Of a stretch of 50,477 nt of DNA, positions 9,733 through 48,401 are shown one piece after another. A program made the translations under genes and the position numbers. The notes beneath the pieces were generated by a model. It ran no database searches. It was not told the origin of the DNA and was given only the letters and a program-made list of their open reading frames with translations. The stretch is taken from the sequence record ON185586.1; one strand, given 5' to 3'. Positions within the stretch are counted from its first letter, which is position 1; every line of letters starts with the position of its first letter. Source of the stretch: Escherichia phage EC125.

Positions 9733-10395
9733 ATGCACTTGCCTAATGGTTCTCAAATTTTCATCGGCGTTAATATGGGTGAGCCAATTAGCGCTACTGA
9801 TATTTCAAACGCTAAAGATCCGGTTTTTACTGTTAGTAATTCACAGCAGATCAAAAAAGGTGCTTATGTTCTGATTGAAACGTCTTCCTGGGGTAAACTG
9901 GTTAGTCGTGTGTTGCGGGTAAAAGAAGTATCTGATAACGCAAGCGTAACTCTTGAAGGTGTAGACACAACCGATCAAAACGTATTTCCGGCTGGTTCTA
10001 ATACAGCAACTTTCCGAGAGGTGAAATCTTGGGTAGAGGTTCCTTGCGTACAGGATCTTGCGCAGGACGGCGGCGAGCAACAGTATTACACTTATCAGTG
10101 TTTGGCTGATGACCAGGAACAGCAGTTGCCGACCTACAAGAGCGCCGTTTCTCTTACCTATACTTTCGCGCATGAATATGATAATCCGATTTATCCGATC
10201 TTGCGCGAGGCTGAGGAATCCGGCGACGTAACCGCTTTGCGTATGTACGTGCCGAAAGCTAAAGAGATGCGTTGCTGGGCTGGCGTATTGTCTTTTAATG
10301 ACATTCCGCAAACAACTATGAACGAAATGGAAACTGTTTCCCTTTCTGTATCTCTGAAAGGCCGATTCACGTTCTTACCTTCCGACGTTAAGTAA
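9733..10395 (+). CDS. major tail (tube) protein
   Basis: 220 aa; GGAGG RBS; followed by terminator and chaperone G/G-T pair. Confidence 0.55.
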   Translation: MHLPNGSQIFIGVNMGEPISATDISNAKDPVFTVSNSQQIKKGAYVLIETSSWGKLVSRVLRVKEVSDNASVTLEGVDTTDQNVFPAGSNTATFREVKSWVEVPCVQDLAQDGGEQQYYTYQCLADDQEQQLPTYKSAVSLTYTFAHEYDNPIYPILREAEESGDVTALRMYVPKAKEMRCWAGVLSFNDIPQTTMNEMETVSLSVSLKGRFTFLPSDVK

Positions 10396-10400
10396 AACAA

Positions 10401-10421
10401 GGGGCGTTGCGCCCCTTTTTT
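10401..10421 (+). terminator. intrinsic terminator after major tail gene
   Basis: GGGGCGTTGCGCCCC then TTTTTT. Confidence 0.6.
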
Positions 10422-10460
10422 CATTCCTGTAAAATCAATCTATCAAATAAATTAATTCCA

Positions 10461-10480
10461 CTTTTAACAAAAAGTGCTAT
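10461..10480 (-). promoter_or_regulatory. 21-bp element, inverted copy abutting RBS of tail chaperone gene
   Basis: TTTTAACAAAAAGTGCTAT directly followed by AAGGAG. Confidence 0.5.
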
Positions 10481-10494
10481 AAGGAGATCTTAAG

Positions 10495-10812
10495 ATGGCA
10501 AAGATGAAACTAACGTTAGGCCCACTGCCTGATTTTAAGCTGCCTGTTTCTTTCGTGCTTCCAAATGGTGATGAGCAAGTTATTGTTTTTACCGTGCGCC
10601 ACAAGAAGGCAAGCGAAATTCACGAACGATACACGGCAGAAAAGCCGATGAGCGACGTAGAAATGATCACCTTCCTTGCTTCCGGTTGGGATCTGGAAGA
10701 TGAATTTAACGAGGAAAACGTTGCTAAATTGCTGGATTATTACCCGTCTGCGTCATTATCGCTGACTGGTCATTATATGAAAGCACTTGCGGGGCAGCGG
10801 GTAAAAAACTAA
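10495..10812 (+). CDS. tail assembly chaperone (lambda gpG-like)
   Basis: 105 aa directly upstream of tape measure; ends 3 nt after slippery A_AAA_AAC. Confidence 0.65.
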   Translation: MAKMKLTLGPLPDFKLPVSFVLPNGDEQVIVFTVRHKKASEIHERYTAEKPMSDVEMITFLASGWDLEDEFNEENVAKLLDYYPSASLSLTGHYMKALAGQRVKN

Positions 10813-11129
10813 AGCGGGCGGTTTACCTGTTTTACCTCAAGCCGCCAACTGACGCACAATTAGAGGCCGTCGGCCTATCCCGTTCAGACTACGAAGGGGA
10901 GGAGCCGCCGGAGGTAATTTTTGATGAATCAATGTTTCAATCTTGGGATCTGTTTTGCGCTATGCAGACGCAATGGAGATCGACTAGCGGCAGTGTGTAT
11001 GGGTTCGACTATAACGTTTTGCCTATGCTTTTTGACATTTACAAGATTGAGGATCGGGAGATGGCGCTAAATGATTTGCGCATCATGGAACAAAAGGCGC
11101 TAGAAATGATTCATTCAAACAAAACATAA
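10495..11129 (+). CDS. tail assembly chaperone fusion (gpGT-like) via programmed -1 frameshift
   Basis: heptamer AAAAAAC at 10803-10809; the -1 frame is open from there to 11129 and includes the 65-aa track ORF 10932-11129. Confidence 0.55.
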
Positions 11130-11150
11130 GCGCCGCGAGGCGCTTTTTTA
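11129..11150 (+). terminator. intrinsic terminator / attenuator before tape measure gene
   Basis: AGCGCCGCGAGGCGCT then TTTTTT. Confidence 0.5.
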
Positions 11151-11168: not shown

Positions 11169-13850
11169 ATGGCTGAAAAATACGCTGGCCTAACGCTAGG
11201 CGTTGACGTGTCGCAGGTCAACAATGCTGTTAAATCATTGCAGCAATTCAAGAAGGCAAACGACGACGCAAAAAAAAGCGTTAATGAATTTGTTGATTCT
11301 GAGGTTGTGGCCCGACAGCAAGCAAAACAGCTTGCCGAAGAACTGGCGCGCCAGAAAGCAGAATTTAAGAAAATCCAGGAGTCAATTGATCCCACTGCAT
11401 CAAAGATGGATAAGCTGCGAAAGGCAGCGACACAGCTTGATGCGCTATGGAAAAAGGGCGTTGTTCCTGATCAGACTTTTTTTGAGCTTGGGGCAATTCT
11501 TGAGACGCAGCAAAACAAGCTGATCGCAACCAAAAAAGCGATGACAGAGGAAGGCCGCGCGGCGCTTGAGGAATCAAAGAACAAGGCGCGTGCAGCGGAA
11601 GAGGCTAAAAAATTCGTCCAGGCTTTGCGTGAGCAGGAAGAAGCAGCAGGAAAAAGCAAGTCTGAATTGCTGGAAATGAAAGCGGCACAGCTTGGAGTTA
11701 GCCAGGAGGCAGCACCTTACATCGCAAGGCTGAAAGAGCAGGAAAAGCAGATCCAGAAACTTGGGATTTCTACAGGCCAATACAAACAAGCAATGGCGCA
11801 ATTGCCAATGCAGATCACAGACGTGGTGACTTCACTTGCTTCTGGTATGCCAGTTTGGTTGGTCGCAGTCCAGCAGGGTGGACAGATCAAGGATTCTTTT
11901 GGTGGTGCATCCAATGCTTTAAAAGCGTTGCTATCTTTCCTGAATCCGGTAAACGTGGCGTTTGGCTTGCTTTCCGGCACGCTGGCAATTGCTGCATATA
12001 ATGCCTACAAAGCACAGACAGAGTTTGAGGCAATTAAAAAAACCGTTCAGGAAACAACAGGCTTGACTGGTGATTTTGCCGAAAAGATTGCTACCGGAAT
12101 CCAGGAGCTTTCCGACAAGACAGGCGAAAGCGCCGAAGATCTGGCAAAGGCTTACATCACCACGAAAGACGGCGTGAGCGAGGCGATTAAAAAACTGGTT
12201 GACGTTGGCATGACTTATGATGACGCAAAAAAGAAAGTCAACGAGTACAAAGGCGCATCTAGCTTTGTCAGCTTGAATAACGAAATTGCAAACCACAAAA
12301 ACAAAGTCCTTGAGTTGGGCGATTCGTGGTATGAGGTTTTGAAAGCGAAGCGTGATTACGCTTCCCCGTCCGGCGGCCTGTTAGGTAAGGAGCTTGGCTA
12401 TGTTAACCCTATGCTTAAGTTTGCACTTAACACTTATGAAGACATTGGAAAGGTCGTAAAAGATGCGAATAAGGACATGGCTGAACGAGCGGAGCGAATC
12501 GACAAAGAAAACCTGGCCTTAAACAGAGTGCGCGCAGCACAGGAGGCTTTAAACAAAGCCATTGAGGATCAGAAAAATGTGGCGCGTTCGGCTGATGAAG
12601 AACTGAAAAAGCGAGCGGCTGAAAACGTGGAGTTTAGGCGCAAAGAGCTTGAGGAAATCAAGAAGCAGGAGCAGAAAAAGAAAGAGGCTAAAGGTGGAAT
12701 AGTTCGCGGCCCGACTGAGCAGCTTGATAAAGAGTTGTACGTTTTAAAAGCGCAACTGGAGATGCTTAAAGAGCATCGCACTGTTAACGATGTTATTTCT
12801 CGCCAGCGTAAATCATTATGGAGTATCGAAAAGCAGATCGAGATCCTGGAGGAAGCGCAGAGCAAGCGTAAATTGACCGGAGCGGAACAGGCGCTACTAA
12901 ACGAGCAAAAAGCCGTTCTTGAAATGGCAAGGCAAAAAGCGGAGCTAGGGGATCAGATTGTTTTACAGGAGCGCAAAAACAAGCTGGAGCAAGATAGCAT
13001 TAAGTTTATCCGTGAAACTCAGGCGGCTATTGATGTGCTTGGCCTTAAGCAACTTGGCTACACTGAAAAGCAGATCGAGCGTGAGCTAGAGTTACGCAAG
13101 CTGCGCACCGACTACGAGGCGCAAGGCGGAAGCGTTAGCGATGAAGTTTTTCAGCAAATGGAGGCGAAACTTAAGCAGTATTATCAGACACAGGATGAGG
13201 TTCAAGGCAACTGGTTGGCAGGAGCAAAAAACGCATGGGAGATGTTCGCGGAAGATGCAAACAATGCCTATGGCAATGTTCAGCAGATCGCAAGCGAGGC
13301 GTTAAACGGCCTTACAAACCAATTAGCGAATTTTATCGCTACTGGCAAGGCAAACTTTAAAGACTTCTCGACGGCTATCATCAAAATGATTATTCAGATG
13401 ATCACGAAAATGGTCGTCTTTAATGCGTTATCTGGCCTGATGGGTGGTCAAACCTGGACGATGGGGAGCTTGCTTAAGAATATTGGCGGATTTGCTGGCG
13501 GTGGATACACTGGAGACGGCGGGAAGTATGAGCCAGCCGGAATTGTCCATAAAGGTGAATTTGTCATGACGAAGGAGGCGACGCAGCGTATCGGGGTAGG
13601 AAACTTGTACCGCATGATGCGAGGCTATGCTAACGGCGGCGTTGTTGGTAGTTCCGGCTATACTGGCGGTGGCGCTGTAACTGGTGGAGCACCTCAATTT
13701 AACATCGGCGGGATTGATGTTAGCATCACTAACGGAAACGATCCGAAGGGCATCGAAACTGGTGTTAAGATGATCTTTACTGATATGATTAAACGTTCCT
13801 GTATGCAGGGCGGCGATGTTTACGAATTTGTTATGAGCAAGCGAGGTTGA
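11169..13850 (+). CDS. tail tape measure protein
   Basis: 893 aa; long coiled-coil-rich N-terminal region, Gly-rich C-terminal region; canonical position. Confidence 0.85.
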   Translation: MAEKYAGLTLGVDVSQVNNAVKSLQQFKKANDDAKKSVNEFVDSEVVARQQAKQLAEELARQKAEFKKIQESIDPTASKMDKLRKAATQLDALWKKGVVPDQTFFELGAILETQQNKLIATKKAMTEEGRAALEESKNKARAAEEAKKFVQALREQEEAAGKSKSELLEMKAAQLGVSQEAAPYIARLKEQEKQIQKLGISTGQYKQAMAQLPMQITDVVTSLASGMPVWLVAVQQGGQIKDSFGGASNALKALLSFLNPVNVAFGLLSGTLAIAAYNAYKAQTEFEAIKKTVQETTGLTGDFAEKIATGIQELSDKTGESAEDLAKAYITTKDGVSEAIKKLVDVGMTYDDAKKKVNEYKGASSFVSLNNEIANHKNKVLELGDSWYEVLKAKRDYASPSGGLLGKELGYVNPMLKFALNTYEDIGKVVKDANKDMAERAERIDKENLALNRVRAAQEALNKAIEDQKNVARSADEELKKRAAENVEFRRKELEEIKKQEQKKKEAKGGIVRGPTEQLDKELYVLKAQLEMLKEHRTVNDVISRQRKSLWSIEKQIEILEEAQSKRKLTGAEQALLNEQKAVLEMARQKAELGDQIVLQERKNKLEQDSIKFIRETQAAIDVLGLKQLGYTEKQIERELELRKLRTDYEAQGGSVSDEVFQQMEAKLKQYYQTQDEVQGNWLAGAKNAWEMFAEDANNAYGNVQQIASEALNGLTNQLANFIATGKANFKDFSTAIIKMIIQMITKMVVFNALSGLMGGQTWTMGSLLKNIGGFAGGGYTGDGGKYEPAGIVHKGEFVMTKEATQRIGVGNLYRMMRGYANGGVVGSSGYTGGGAVTGGAPQFNIGGIDVSITNGNDPKGIETGVKMIFTDMIKRSCMQGGDVYEFVMSKRG

Positions 13851-30916: not shown

Positions 30917-31335
30917 TGGCTATAACTGATAAAGGAGATTATCTTGAGTTTTACGAAAGAGATCCAACCGACACGAGAAAGGAAGTTAATCACCAGATAG
31001 ATAGCTTTCAGTGGTTGACTTATGCTCATCCTTATTTGCTAGCGTGGCATACGGTAAACGAGAATGAGAAGTCGAAAGTAACGGCGATGATTGATCAGCA
31101 GTCCGGCTTGGTTAAGGGGGTAAGCGATTTCATCATCCTGATTGGTTCAAACGGAAAATACCCCTTTGCAGCGATTGAGATCAAACGAGTTAATAAATCA
31201 GGCAAGGGGAAAGCATCACCAGTCAGCGATGAACAAAAGGCTTTTTTGCGTCGCGTTCGCAGTTTAGGAGGATTCGCTGCGGTCGCCTACGGATTTAATC
31301 AGTTTAAGTTAGCTATTGAATACATGCTTAAATAG
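30916..31335 (+). CDS. VRR-NUC domain nuclease
   Basis: 139 aa; ...SDFIILIGSNGKYPFAAIEIKR... PD-(D/E)XK-like core; ATGA overlap with helicase stop. Confidence 0.65.
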   Translation: MAITDKGDYLEFYERDPTDTRKEVNHQIDSFQWLTYAHPYLLAWHTVNENEKSKVTAMIDQQSGLVKGVSDFIILIGSNGKYPFAAIEIKRVNKSGKGKASPVSDEQKAFLRRVRSLGGFAAVAYGFNQFKLAIEYMLK

Positions 31336-31351
31336 CACTTTTTGTTAAAAC
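31331..31351 (+). promoter_or_regulatory. 21-bp element with promoter-like module upstream of dam
   Basis: overlaps stop TAG of VRR-NUC gene; hairpin GGCGC...GCGCC; CATAAT at fixed distance. Confidence 0.55.
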
Positions 31352-38480: not shown

Positions 38481-38500
38481 TTTTAACAAAAAGTGCTATT
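38481..38500 (-). promoter_or_regulatory. 21-bp element with promoter-like module (leftward)
   Basis: overlaps stop of C5-MTase gene; hairpin CCAGGTG...; CATAAT. Confidence 0.55.
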
Positions 38501-39206
38501 TTGAGTTTGACTCAAAGACTGCGCGAGCAAAGCCGCGCGGAGTGAGGGAGCGGATCATCTTTGTGCGCGATGACTTGCCGCCAGTTTTGGCCCAGCCTGG
38601 ATTATCTTTGTCTTCCTCTTTCGGCAGGATTAAAGCGCGTGGAGGAATAACAAAGCCGTTGCCAGTCCAGAGGCACGTTTTCTTAAAATAGCGATCACGC
38701 GCCGGAATAATATCAGGGAAGTCGGGATGTTTATCATCTTCCGGCAGATAGCCAGCGTAATCGCACGGATGGAACGTATAATCAGGCTTACGCCATAACG
38801 TTGACAACTTGCCAACCGGATTTTCGATCATGTAAGGAACACCGAAATAATCAGCTATATCAGCCGCGATTCTGCAAGTGTCGGCGGCCTCATCCTGGAA
38901 CGATGGATTCTCAAGGCGTTTTTTGACCCAATGGCGAGATCCGCTATTTGCAAGGTCGGTGCAAGGAGGGAACGCCATAATAAAATCAGGATTGCCCCAC
39001 TCATTATTGATTGCCTTAACATAAAAAGCATCATCAATCCAGACGTTAACGTATTCGATATTCTCATGCTGTATGCGCACTGACTGGTAATCACCGTGAT
39101 CGCCACCGTCAGCATTAAAGCAAATGCACTTATATCCATTATCAGCCCAATCTTTAACGGCTTTACCAGATCCATCAAATAGGGAGAATATTAAACCTTT
39201 ATACAT
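38496..39206 (-). CDS. DNA cytosine-C5 methyltransferase
   Basis: ATG at 39206 chosen for RBS spacing; motifs LFDGSG (SAM binding), FPPC (catalytic Cys), ENP (ENV-like). Confidence 0.7.
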   Translation of the reverse strand: MYKGLIFSLFDGSGKAVKDWADNGYKCICFNADGGDHGDYQSVRIQHENIEYVNVWIDDAFYVKAINNEWGNPDFIMAFPPCTDLANSGSRHWVKKRLENPSFQDEAADTCRIAADIADYFGVPYMIENPVGKLSTLWRKPDYTFHPCDYAGYLPEDDKHPDFPDIIPARDRYFKKTCLWTGNGFVIPPRALILPKEEDKDNPGWAKTGGKSSRTKMIRSLTPRGFARAVFESNSK

Positions 39207-44818: not shown

Positions 44819-45026
44819 GCGCGTCAAGCACAGGTTTACTGATAACCACGGCGACGCGATTGATGTATACAAGTTCGGCGATCGCGTGTTTATTGATGGC
44901 ACGTTTGAAGGTGGTCGTAGGCCGGATTTTAGGTCGATACTTACCGTTGACCAAGTGCGCAAGCTGGCAGATAAGTTAAATGATCTGGCAGATGAAATAG
45001 AATACAAGCAAATCCATTTTAATTGA
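44805..45026 (+). CDS. hypothetical protein
   Basis: 73 aa. Confidence 0.45.
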   Translation: MKTNKRVKHRFTDNHGDAIDVYKFGDRVFIDGTFEGGRRPDFRSILTVDQVRKLADKLNDLADEIEYKQIHFN

Positions 45027-45037
45027 TAGGTTTTATA

Positions 45038-45748
45038 ATGAAAAAATACACTTTCGAACTATGGGGCAATAAGTACGAATTTACGACAAGCAAGCCTATT
45101 GTTGTGTGCGATCTCGACGGCACACTATCGGACGGATCGCATCGTTTGCATTTGCTGCCAACTGAAAACTTACACCTTACGGAATCGTGGAGCGAATTTA
45201 ACAGGGCCGCCGCCGGAGATTCACCGATTAAAAGCACGATCGCGGTTATTAACGGTTTATGGGTGTCGGGATTTGCCATCGTCATCTTGACCGGACGCAG
45301 CGACGAGGTTCGCTACGAAACCTGCAAATGGTTGAATGAGAACGGCGTGAAGTTTGACGAAATCATCATGCGCCGCCAGGATGACAACCGAAAGGATACG
45401 GTTATTAAAGAGGAAGCCTTGCGCGCTATTTGCCTGGACAACATTGTTTGCGCCTTTGACGATTCGCCGAACGTGGTTAAGCACTTCCGCAGCTTGGGGA
45501 TCACAACCTATCAGGTCACGGAATACGACAAGCCACACGCTCACATACAATCTCACGGCGTGGAATCAATAAAGATCACGAAGCGCGCCCGATTCGTCGG
45601 CAGCAAAGACAGCCTGGTTAATGCCAGCTTTATCAAAGGCAAGGTTTATGATGTTAATAGCCATGATAAAAACCGATTCTTTTTGTGGGATGAAAAAGGT
45701 TTTGGCTGGTGCTTTGAACACGACGACGGCGATTTTGTTAATGCGTAA
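45038..45748 (+). CDS. HAD-superfamily phosphatase (putative nucleotidase / polynucleotide 3'-phosphatase)
   Basis: ATG at 45038; motif VVCDLDGTL (DxDGT), later ILTGR and FDDS; about 236 aa. Confidence 0.55.
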   Translation: MKKYTFELWGNKYEFTTSKPIVVCDLDGTLSDGSHRLHLLPTENLHLTESWSEFNRAAAGDSPIKSTIAVINGLWVSGFAIVILTGRSDEVRYETCKWLNENGVKFDEIIMRRQDDNRKDTVIKEEALRAICLDNIVCAFDDSPNVVKHFRSLGITTYQVTEYDKPHAHIQSHGVESIKITKRARFVGSKDSLVNASFIKGKVYDVNSHDKNRFFLWDEKGFGWCFEHDDGDFVNA

Positions 45749-48091: not shown

Positions 48092-48382
48092 ATGGCAAAC
48101 AAAACTTACCGCAAGCTACTGGTTAACGCTTTTGAAAACATCGCGCAGTGTAACAAGTGGAACGACTCTAAACACTCGCCAATCACAATGAAGCGCGCCG
48201 GATTCAAAAATACTCGTTCATGGGCGCGAGCTTTCGCAGCTTGCTATATGCCGGATGGCGGACTAGGGGTGATGAACGATTTTTTGATCAACATGATAGA
48301 GGAAGCGGCGCGAGAGGATCGACCGCTGACACAGCGAGATTTTGACGGCTTCGCGCGCGATGAGCTTTACTATCTGAGTTAA
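48092..48382 (+). CDS. hypothetical protein
   Basis: 96 aa; stop overlaps motif copy. Confidence 0.5.
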   Translation: MANKTYRKLLVNAFENIAQCNKWNDSKHSPITMKRAGFKNTRSWARAFAACYMPDGGLGVMNDFLINMIEEAAREDRPLTQRDFDGFARDELYYLS

Positions 48383-48401
48383 TAGCACTTTTTGTTAAAA
48401 C
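48381..48401 (+). promoter_or_regulatory. 21-bp element with promoter-like module
   Basis: overlaps stop TAA; hairpin AAGGGCA...TGCCCTT; TAAAGT. Confidence 0.55.

What the first reader, a model, noticed from the sequence alone, without database searches (positions are those of the whole stretch)
10495..11129. Programmed -1 frameshift site (A_AAA_AAC) joining the two tail assembly chaperone ORFs
ORF 10495-10812 ends 3 nt after the heptamer AAAAAAC (10803-10809). The 65-aa track ORF 10932-11129 is in the -1 frame, and that frame is open all the way back to the heptamer. This is the conserved G/G-T arrangement immediately upstream of tape measure genes. The slippery sequence and a stop-free -1 frame are both directly visible.
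Basis: partly seen in the sequence, partly recalled or inferred. Interest (0 to 1): 0.45.

Follow-up and report, generated by a model that had tools for sequence, protein, structure and literature searches.

The report
Tail chaperone G/GT frameshift site
This is the well-known programmed -1 frameshift that lets a T1-like E. coli phage make a short and a long form of its tail assembly chaperone from one gene pair; the sequence evidence is solid, but the feature is ordinary and already annotated in close relatives.

Summary
The window is Escherichia phage EC195 (Drexlerviridae, Warwickvirus). ORF 10495-10812 (105 aa, Pfam Phage_TAC_4) ends GTA AAA AAC TAA, so A_AAA_AAC (10803-10809) is in the zero-frame register. 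The -1 frame is open from 10728 to 11129 and has no ATG/GTG/TTG before 10932.

A -1 slip gives a 211-aa fusion, join(10495..10809,10809..11129). Three results show the -1 frame is translated from the heptamer onward:
- Pfam DUF1799 begins 19 codons upstream of the annotated ATG.
- A PHROG profile of 213 positions matches the fusion end to end.
- The 41 codons before that ATG, which have no start codon, evolve as coding sequence (dN/dS 0.085; variable sites 14/10/37 by codon position).

GTA AAA AAC CTA shows no synonymous variation in 30 distinct relatives. Distant relatives keep X_XXA_AAC plus a stop, including G_GGA_AAC TGA in Ralstonia-type phages. That pattern favours ribosomal over transcriptional slippage.

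A hairpin 7 nt downstream is present in some lineages and lost in others. Citrobacter phage Stevie (same subfamily, 74% identical fusion) already carries the joined CDS. Only EC195's own record lacks it.

Verdict: real, correctly interpreted, already known. Whether the fusion is made, and at what rate, was not tested.

The parts
10481..10486 (+). Shine-Dalgarno sequence AAGGAG of the chaperone gene, 8 nt before ATG 10495
   Evidence: Read directly from the sequence.
10495..10812 (+). G-like tail assembly chaperone ORF (105 aa), the product of standard decoding
   Evidence: Translation. Pfam PF08748 Phage_TAC_4, E=5e-31, profile positions 1-124 of 124.
10803..10809 (+). Slippery heptamer A_AAA_AAC in the zero-frame register (GT|A AAA AAC)
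   Evidence: Codons GTA/GCA AAA AAC are invariant at synonymous sites in 30 distinct relatives. The same heptamer is present in T1, Rtp, Stevie and Dhillonvirus, and G_GGA_AAC in Ralstonia-type phages.
10810..10812 (+). Zero-frame stop TAA directly 3' of the heptamer; a possible stimulator through slow termination
   Evidence: A stop directly follows X_XXA_AAC in every A_AAA_AAC lineage and in 19 Ralstonia-type loci. The stimulatory role is inference.
10809..11129 (+). -1 frame T segment (106 codons plus stop). With 10495..10809 it gives the 211-aa GT-like fusion, join(10495..10809,10809..11129)
   Evidence: The frame is open. PF08809 DUF1799 covers fusion residues 128-206. phrog_17368 matches residues 1-209 over 211 of 213 profile positions, E=6e-99. 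The first 41 codons have dN/dS 0.085.
10817..10846 (+). Candidate stimulatory hairpin: 8-bp stem (10817-10824 with 10839-10846), 14-nt loop, 7 nt after the heptamer
   Evidence: Folding gives -13.2 kcal/mol, z = -1.8 in EC195. It is stronger in T1, Hanrivervirus-type and Stevie-type sequences (z -3.6 to -5.6) and absent in three lineages. There is no convincing covariation. Status: inconclusive.
10932..11129 (+). ORF annotated as a separate 65-aa gene in the EC195 record; in fact the C-terminal two thirds of the T segment
   Evidence: The Pfam domain starts 19 codons upstream of its ATG. The Met is replaced by Thr in Webervirus.
9733..10395 (+). Major tail (tube) protein gene, the upstream neighbour and presumed partner of the T domain
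   Evidence: PF08813 Phage_tail_3, E=6e-64. The binding role is inferred from lambda.
11169..13850 (+). Tape measure protein gene, the downstream neighbour and presumed client of the G domain
   Evidence: PF06791 TMP_2 and PF09718 Tape_meas_lam_C. The client role is inferred from lambda.

Best explanation
Most ribosomes translating the chaperone mRNA of phage EC195 decode GTA AAA AAC and terminate at TAA (10810-10812). This makes the 105-aa G-like tail assembly chaperone.

A small fraction slip one base backwards on A_AAA_AAC (10803-10809). The tRNA-Lys re-pairs from AAA to AAA and the tRNA-Asn from AAC to AAA. Translation then continues with CTA (10809-10811) in the -1 frame to TAA at 11127-11129. 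The product is a 211-aa fusion whose C-terminal 106 residues carry the DUF1799 'T' domain.

By analogy with lambda gpG/gpGT (review PMC5009743), many G copies and a few GT copies would coat the tape measure protein through the shared G part. The T part would recruit the major tail protein, and neither chaperone would stay in the virion.

Shown here: the signal, the open frame, translation of the -1 frame from the heptamer onward (evolutionary and domain evidence), and conservation of the site. Inferred: that the shift is ribosomal, that its rate is low, that the adjacent stop and/or the downstream hairpin raise it, and the assembly role.
For: Register and open frame.

No canonical start codon occurs in the -1 frame before 10932. 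Yet DUF1799 begins at fusion residue 128, while the ATG is residue 147. phrog_17368 matches the fusion end to end.

The 41 codons without a start codon have variable sites of 14/10/37 by codon position and dN/dS 0.085. The other two frames carry stops in all sequences.

Codons 107-111 (KRAVY), directly after the slip site, keep their amino acids while their codons change.

The junction falls in the same ungapped alignment column in seven lineages down to 29% identity.

GTA AAA AAC CTA shows zero synonymous variation, against 0.41 overall and 0.47-0.70 in the six preceding codons.

In Dhillonvirus a -1-frame TGA lies directly 5' of the heptamer. The shift is therefore confined to 10 nt that contain A_AAA_AAC.

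Ralstonia-type relatives use G_GGA_AAC TGA, with only three A's. What is conserved is tRNA re-pairing potential, not a homopolymer.

1,148 phage records carry the two-frame arrangement.

Stevie carries a two-piece joined CDS at the same heptamer. Genome announcements for the T1-like phages Stevie and Skenny, for Solomon (structural proteins most like T1's) and for the E. coli phage U136B note the frameshift.
Against: No protein or reporter data exist for EC195, and none was found for any T1-like phage.

In E. coli reporters A_AAA_AAC is a weak heptamer: 0.16% alone and only 0.74% with the strong IS3 pseudoknot.

No conserved upstream Shine-Dalgarno-like stimulator is present.

The downstream hairpin lacks covariation and is lost in three lineages.

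Webervirus relatives have no canonical heptamer (GCA AAA GTY TAA), so the exact mechanism is not uniform across the family.

An A6 run leaves some room for transcriptional slippage in the E. coli phages.
Confidence: 0.88

Rival explanations
1. Transcriptional slippage. RNA polymerase adds one extra A in the A6 run (10803-10808). A minority of mRNAs then encode G and T in one continuous frame, and the ribosome does not shift.
For: Six consecutive A's are conserved in all E. coli, Citrobacter and Enterobacter lineages examined. The predicted product (…VKKLKR…) differs by one residue from the ribosomal product (…VKNLKR…). Sequence analysis alone cannot separate the two within this phage.
Against: Homologous sites in distant relatives are G_GGA_AAC (three A's) or CAAAAG (four A's), still with the same junction column. 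Selection is thus on the X_XXA_AAC pattern in the zero-frame register, not on run length. The register itself (always GTA/GCA/GAA AAA AAC) and the adjacent stop matter only to a ribosome. From my own knowledge, productive bacterial transcriptional slippage generally uses runs longer than six A/T.
Confidence: 0.06
2. Two independent genes, as in the deposited annotation. T is a separate 65-aa protein started at ATG 10932, or at a non-canonical codon such as CTG 10827 by termination-reinitiation, and no fusion is made.
For: The EC195, T1, Rtp, JLBYU and RefSeq records annotate two separate CDS. GGAGG lies at 10910-14 upstream of ATG 10932.
Against: The GGAGG-to-ATG spacing is 17 nt, which is too long, and the motif is made of conserved Glu/Pro/Val codons. 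The ATG is not conserved (Thr in Webervirus). The Pfam domain and strong purifying selection extend 41 codons upstream of the ATG, right to the heptamer. They include codons 107-111, which lie upstream of CTG 10827. There is no ATG/GTG/TTG in that frame.
Confidence: 0.03
3. Artefact. A homopolymer sequencing error or a recent frameshift mutation split one ordinary gene in two.
For: Two IMG/VR contigs (L011, L027) do show A5 instead of A6 together with other indels, so the run is error-prone in sequencing.
Against: The two-frame arrangement with the same stop position recurs in 1,095 of 1,148 matching phage records and in every good-quality locus examined.
Confidence: 0.01

Closest known systems
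Bacteriophage lambda gpG/gpGT programmed -1 frameshift (Levin, Hendrix & Casjens 1993; Xu, Hendrix & Duda 2004, 2013, 2014; summarised in PMC5009743)
   Same: Two overlapping ORFs sit between the major tail protein and tape measure genes. The second ORF is in the -1 frame without its own start codon. An X_XXA_AAN heptamer lies near the end of G. The outcome is a short product and a low-abundance C-terminally extended product.
   Different: Lambda uses G_GGA_AAG, an efficient heptamer in E. coli (3.8-43% with stimulators). EC195 uses A_AAA_AAC (0.19-0.74%), followed directly by the stop. The proteins belong to different Pfam families (PF08748/PF08809), and no hit to any other Pfam family was found even at E<=10.
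Citrobacter phage Stevie CPT_Stevie15/16 tape measure chaperones (KM236241; PMC4319613), with the similar notes for Solomon, U136B and Skenny
   Same: Same subfamily (Tempevirinae), same heptamer GTA AAA AAC TAA, same junction, and a fusion 74% identical. The frameshift product is annotated as a two-piece joined CDS.
   Different: The differences are sequence divergence and EC195's own record, which lists two 'hypothetical proteins'. Stevie-type sequences have a stronger downstream hairpin.
IS1 insA-insB' -1 frameshift
   Same: The same A_AAA_AAC heptamer is used in E. coli. It is a proven low-level frameshift with no established stimulator (PMC4066793).
   Different: IS1 produces a transposase fusion, not a chaperone. 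This report did not check whether a stop codon adjoins the IS1 heptamer.
g-t frameshift sites of haloarchaeal siphoviruses HCTV-1 and HCTV-2
   Same: The review PMC5009743 reports G_GGA_AAC and A_AAA_AAC as their g-t shift sites. These are the same two heptamers found in this chaperone family.
   Different: The hosts are archaea and the proteins are unrelated. No comparison was made here.

Membership tests
Conserved G/GT-type tail assembly chaperone frameshift of long-tailed phages (Xu, Hendrix & Duda 2004) | Two ORFs located between the major tail protein gene and the tape measure gene | tested here: met
   PF08813 tube protein at 9733-10395, then G at 10495-10812 and T to 11129, then PF06791/PF09718 tape measure at 11169-13850.
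Conserved G/GT-type tail assembly chaperone frameshift of long-tailed phages (Xu, Hendrix & Duda 2004) | The second ORF overlaps the end of the first in the -1 frame and lacks its own start codon at its true N-terminus | tested here: met
   The -1 frame is open from 10728 to 11129. There is no ATG/GTG/TTG before 10932, although the domain and purifying selection start at the heptamer.
Conserved G/GT-type tail assembly chaperone frameshift of long-tailed phages (Xu, Hendrix & Duda 2004) | A slippery sequence (X_XXY_YYZ) in the zero-frame register inside the overlap | tested here: met
   A_AAA_AAC at 10803-10809. It shows no synonymous variation in 30 relatives.
Conserved G/GT-type tail assembly chaperone frameshift of long-tailed phages (Xu, Hendrix & Duda 2004) | The arrangement is conserved among relatives despite sequence divergence | tested here: met
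   1,148 phage records. Seven lineages down to 29% identity share the junction column. Slip sites are listed.
Conserved G/GT-type tail assembly chaperone frameshift of long-tailed phages (Xu, Hendrix & Duda 2004) | The fusion protein is made at a low ratio to G, is required for tail assembly, and is absent from virions | not testable with these tools
   This needs a western blot, mass spectrometry, a reporter assay and phage genetics. No such data for T1-like phages were found in the literature searches.
Lambda gpG / gpT protein families (by sequence) | A detectable sequence match to a Pfam family other than PF08748/PF08809, which would include the lambda gpG and gpT families | tested here: not met
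   Only PF08748 and PF08809 are reported, even at E<=10. NCBIfam gives nothing. No solved structure matches by sequence. EC195 therefore works like lambda G/GT by position and architecture but is not a sequence-level member.
Pfam PF08748 Phage_TAC_4 and PF08809 DUF1799 | A score above the Pfam gathering threshold | tested here: met
   104.7 bits against a cutoff of 21.1, and 45.8 bits against 26.
dnaX/IS911-type stimulated -1 frameshift signal | A conserved Shine-Dalgarno-like element about 10 nt upstream and/or a conserved stable structure 5-9 nt downstream | tested here: inconclusive
   No conserved SD-like element is present (GCG GGG / GCA GGG / GCT GGT / GCC GGA vary). The hairpin 7 nt downstream is present in 10 of 13 lineages, but it lacks covariation and is lost in three.
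Programmed transcriptional slippage | A homopolymer run long enough for RNA polymerase realignment, conserved as a run | tested here: not met
   EC195 has only A6. Homologous sites have A3 (G_GGA_AAC) or A4.

The most novel reading that the evidence does not exclude
The whole PF08748/PF08809 chaperone family, from E. coli T1-like phages to Ralstonia-type phages, keeps heptamers of the X_XXA_AAC class. In E. coli reporters these give only 0.16-0.9% frameshifting even with strong stimulators. In most lineages a zero-frame stop codon directly adjoins the heptamer. This pattern does not exclude a termination-coupled mechanism, in which the slowly decoded stop in the A site drives slippage of the Lys and Asn tRNAs after translocation. 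It also does not exclude that these phages need a far lower GT:G ratio than lambda's 1:30. Either would be a modest refinement of the G/GT paradigm.
Probability: 0.3. Interest if true: 0.35.

Novelty: already known. Interest (0 to 1): 0.15.

Why it matters
The practical value is annotation. EC195's record, and most T1-like records including T1 and the RefSeq entries, list two separate small genes. Some are misnamed 'tail length tape measure protein', and the 211-aa fusion product is missed. The correct CDS is join(10495..10809,10809..11129).

In biological terms, the site confirms that the G/GT strategy extends through the Drexlerviridae. It also gives a clean comparative dataset: the slip site is invariant at synonymous positions, and in one lineage it is pinned to 10 nt.

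The one open point of wider interest is why an E. coli phage family conserves a heptamer that is inefficient in E. coli, always next to a stop codon.

Tried and rejected
1. Protein database search with the fusion returned only three T-part hits and added little.

2. The search for related loci with the seven-lineage alignment failed because no stretch was conserved enough. Single distant proteins were used instead.

3. The RNAalifold consensus fold of the slip region gave only a weak long-range helix (-4.8 kcal/mol) with no useful covariation. The locally predicted hairpin was tested explicitly. It pairs in 89% of cells, against about 50% for slid controls. However, it was derived from one of the sequences, is confounded by conserved amino acids (RAV / KPP), and is broken in three lineages. 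I therefore do not claim it as a proven stimulator.

4. Rfam found nothing at the slip site.

5. There is no sequence-level link to solved structures, to NCBIfam, or to any Pfam family other than PF08748/PF08809.

6. A genome-wide scan for heptamer plus -1 extension showed that such coincidences occur elsewhere in the window, mostly inside real genes or at ordinary gene overlaps. The heptamer alone was therefore rejected as sufficient evidence.

7. The Xu et al. 2013 paper was not available, so the 2016 review was used for the lambda model. Whether Xu et al. 2004 list T1 explicitly could not be checked.

8. Structure prediction was not run, because it would not bear on the frameshift question.

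Full report
IDENTITY OF THE WINDOW. A 2.2-kb query around the finding matches Escherichia phage EC195 (ON185588.1, 50,477 bp) at 100% at the same coordinates. EC195 belongs to Drexlerviridae, Tempevirinae, Warwickvirus, so it is a T1-like siphovirus. Its record annotates 10495-10812 and 10932-11129 as two separate 'hypothetical proteins'.

CHECK OF THE OBSERVATION. The sequence reads ...CAG CGG GTA AAA AAC TAA AGC GGG.... ORF 10495-10812 translates to 105 aa ending ...AGQRVKN*. AAAAAAC occupies 10803-10809 and is phased A_AAA_AAC relative to the zero frame. TAA follows at 10810-10812.

The -1 frame is free of stops from 10728 to the TAA at 11127-11129. The +1 frame is full of stops. The ORF listing starts the -1-frame ORF at ATG 10932, so there is no ATG, GTG or TTG in that frame between 10728 and 10932. 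A -1 slip after AAC gives join(10495..10809,10809..11129), which is 105 + 106 = 211 aa.

From base composition, 106 stop-free codons have a probability of about 0.0016. In-register X_XXY_YYZ heptamers are not rare in themselves: 40 occur in 10,758 codon positions, five of them AAAAAAC. The case therefore rests on the evidence below, not on the heptamer alone.

WHAT THE PROTEINS ARE. The upstream gene (9733-10395) is a tail tube protein (PF08813). The downstream gene (11169-13850) is a tape measure protein (PF06791 + PF09718). The 105-aa ORF is a full-length Pfam tail assembly chaperone (PF08748, E=5e-30).

In the conceptual fusion, PF08809 (DUF1799) covers residues 128-206, while the annotated ATG is residue 147. 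Nineteen residues of the domain therefore lie where no canonical initiation is possible. phrog_17368, a profile of 213 positions, matches the fusion over residues 1-209 at E=6e-99, which fits a family built from full-length fusion proteins. phrog_680 matches from residue 114.

EVIDENCE THAT THE -1 FRAME IS TRANSLATED FROM THE HEPTAMER ONWARD. Twenty-two good-quality IMG/VR relatives (62-100% identical in G) all end G with GTAAAAAACTAA. All have about 103-104 open -1 codons beyond it.

The 41 codons between the heptamer and the ATG give 16 distinct nucleotide sequences. Their variable sites are 14, 10 and 37 at codon positions 1, 2 and 3 of the -1 frame. Mean dN is 0.085 and mean dS is 0.99, a ratio of 0.085. 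The other two frames contain stops in all sequences.

The peptide LKRAVYL(F/Y)YQKPPTDAELEAVGL... is better conserved than the G domain. Codons 107-111, directly after the slip site, keep their amino acids while their codons vary: AAG/AAA, CGG/AGG/CGC/CGA, GCG/GCC, GTT/GTC/GTG, TAC/TAT. This excludes initiation further downstream, for example at CTG 10827.

CONSERVATION OF THE SIGNAL ITSELF. In 30 distinct sequences the codons GTA (27 of 27 Val), AAA, AAC and the overlapping -1 codon CTA show zero synonymous variation. The overall figure is 0.41, and the six preceding codons show 0.47-0.70.

T1 (GCA AAA AAC TAA), Rtp, Hanrivervirus aalborv and Stevie have the same site. A tblastn search with the fusion finds 1,148 phage records, and 1,095 of them cover at least 80% of the fusion. 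Every full-length match listed was in two pieces, meaning two reading frames.

More distant lineages show these sites:
- Dhillonvirus has GAA AAA AAC TAA with a -1-frame TGA directly 5' of the heptamer. The frame change must therefore occur within 10 nt.
- Nineteen Ralstonia-type loci have CGG GGA AAC TGA, which is G_GGA_AAC plus a stop.
- Four metagenomic loci have CTG GGA AAC TCC TAA.
- Fuzzy_ER39 has CAA AAG CAC TAA, an A_AAG site.
- Thirty-eight Webervirus loci have GCA AAA GTY/GCC TAA, which is only A_AAA.

An alignment of seven fusions down to 29% identity is ungapped across the junction, with invariant R102, L106 and A109.

MECHANISM. The conserved feature is a zero-frame-phased X_XXA_AAC motif, not the length of the A run. 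It therefore points to tandem tRNA re-pairing on the ribosome rather than RNA polymerase slippage. The latter cannot be excluded for the A6 lineages from sequence alone.

In E. coli reporter assays A_AAA_AAC is weak: 0.163% alone, 0.189% with the IS911 stimulators and 0.739% with the IS3 pseudoknot. G_GGA_AAC gives 0.164, 0.222 and 0.888%. Lambda's G_GGA_AAG gives 0.277, 3.80 and 43.0% (Sharma et al. 2014, Table S3). The same paper notes that A_AAA_AAC is nevertheless used by IS1, where a low level is the aim. A low GT:G ratio is therefore expected.

Possible enhancers:
(a) The directly adjacent stop codon, conserved in most lineages (inference).
(b) A hairpin at 10817-10824/10839-10846, 7 nt after the heptamer. 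In EC195 it folds at -13.2 kcal/mol with z = -1.8. In T1, Hanrivervirus-type and Stevie-type sequences an extra inner stem gives -15 to -16 kcal/mol with z from -3.6 to -5.6. In lineages L020, L023 and Rtp synonymous changes remove it.

Pair counting shows 89% of cells paired, against about 50% for slid controls, but almost no compensatory change. RNAalifold does not recover the hairpin. EC195 itself has CTC (Leu115) where relatives have CAG (Gln), which removes the inner stem. I rate the hairpin as an optional, lineage-specific stimulator at best. No conserved upstream SD-like element is visible, and Rfam finds nothing at the site.

FUNCTION. Lambda is the model (PMC5009743). There, gpG and the G part of gpGT bind the tape measure protein, the T part binds the major tail protein, the required ratio is about 30:1, and neither is in the virion. 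By analogy, EC195's G and GT would chaperone its 893-aa tape measure protein and start tube polymerisation. This is inference from synteny and architecture. The EC195 proteins matched no Pfam family other than PF08748 and PF08809, even at E<=10.

COMPARISON WITH WHAT IS KNOWN. The phenomenon has been textbook knowledge since 1993 and 2004. It has been noted specifically for T1-like and related phages:
- Solomon, whose structural proteins most resemble T1's.
- U136B, an E. coli phage.
- Skenny.

The Stevie record carries a two-piece joined CDS (10144..10775) at the identical heptamer, and its product is 74% identical to EC195's fusion. In contrast, no join was found in EC195, T1, Rtp, tunzivis, aalborv, JLBYU16/19, vB_EcoS-95, SegesCirculi, VAC9, SSL-2009a or Fuzzy_ER39. 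RefSeq names both ORFs 'tail length tape measure protein'.

VERDICT. The feature is already known, and for EC195 it amounts to an annotation correction. Interest is low (0.15). The only mildly open question is why this family conserves an E. coli-inefficient heptamer next to a stop codon.

Noticed in passing
window 10462-10481 and 17 other sites (e.g. 2092-2111, 31331-31350, 38481-38500, 48381-48400): A 20-nt repeat, TTTTAACAAAAAGTGCTATT, occurs 18 times at up to 2 mismatches, against 0.05 expected. One copy lies directly 5' of the chaperone gene's ribosome binding site. It corresponds to the 22-bp repeat reported in T1 and Stevie, whose role is unknown (PMC4319613).
   Followed up: partly
window 10399-10417 and 11128-11145: Terminator-like GC hairpins with T tracts bracket the G/T gene pair. 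The second overlaps the T stop codon and sits just before the tape measure gene. T1's record annotates rho-independent terminators at both equivalent positions. Rfam's only hits in the region are sub-threshold matches on the first hairpin.
   Followed up: partly
L074-L111 (Webervirus, Klebsiella phages), L031, L034: The homologous junction reads GCA AAA GTY (or GCC) TAA. There is no X_XXY_YYZ heptamer, only A_AAA, yet the two-frame architecture is intact in 38 loci. How these phages shift frame is unclear.
   Followed up: partly
L035, L059-L073 (Dhillonvirus): A -1-frame TGA lies directly 5' of A_AAA_AAC (cgT GAA AAA AAC TAA), so the two frames overlap by only 10 nt. This is a natural experiment that pins the shift to the heptamer.
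   Followed up: yes
L011 and L027 (IMG/VR contigs): These contigs have A5 instead of A6 at the slip site and further indels elsewhere in G/T. They are most likely homopolymer sequencing errors. This is a caution for automated frameshift calls.
   Followed up: partly
window 9733-10395; relatives NC_048132, NC_005833: There are annotation problems. EC195's tube protein (PF08813) is labelled 'tail fiber'. RefSeq relatives label both chaperone ORFs 'tail length tape measure protein'.
   Followed up: yes
window 10910-11070: GGAGG (10910-10914) lies 9 nt before an ATG at 10924 in the zero frame, which opens a Cys-rich 48-49-aa ORF (listed from TTG 10921 to 11070). It is probably spurious, because the SD-like motif is formed by conserved Glu-Pro-Pro-Glu-Val codons of the T frame.
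   Followed up: no
window 45040-45046 (- strand) and window 38924-38930 (- strand): A scan for an in-register heptamer plus a -1 extension of at least 60 codons also flags T_TTT_TTC at the end of minus-strand ORF 45019-45285 and an A_AAA_AAC in minus-strand ORF 38855-39178. The first region has competing ORFs on both strands. Neither was examined further.
   Followed up: no
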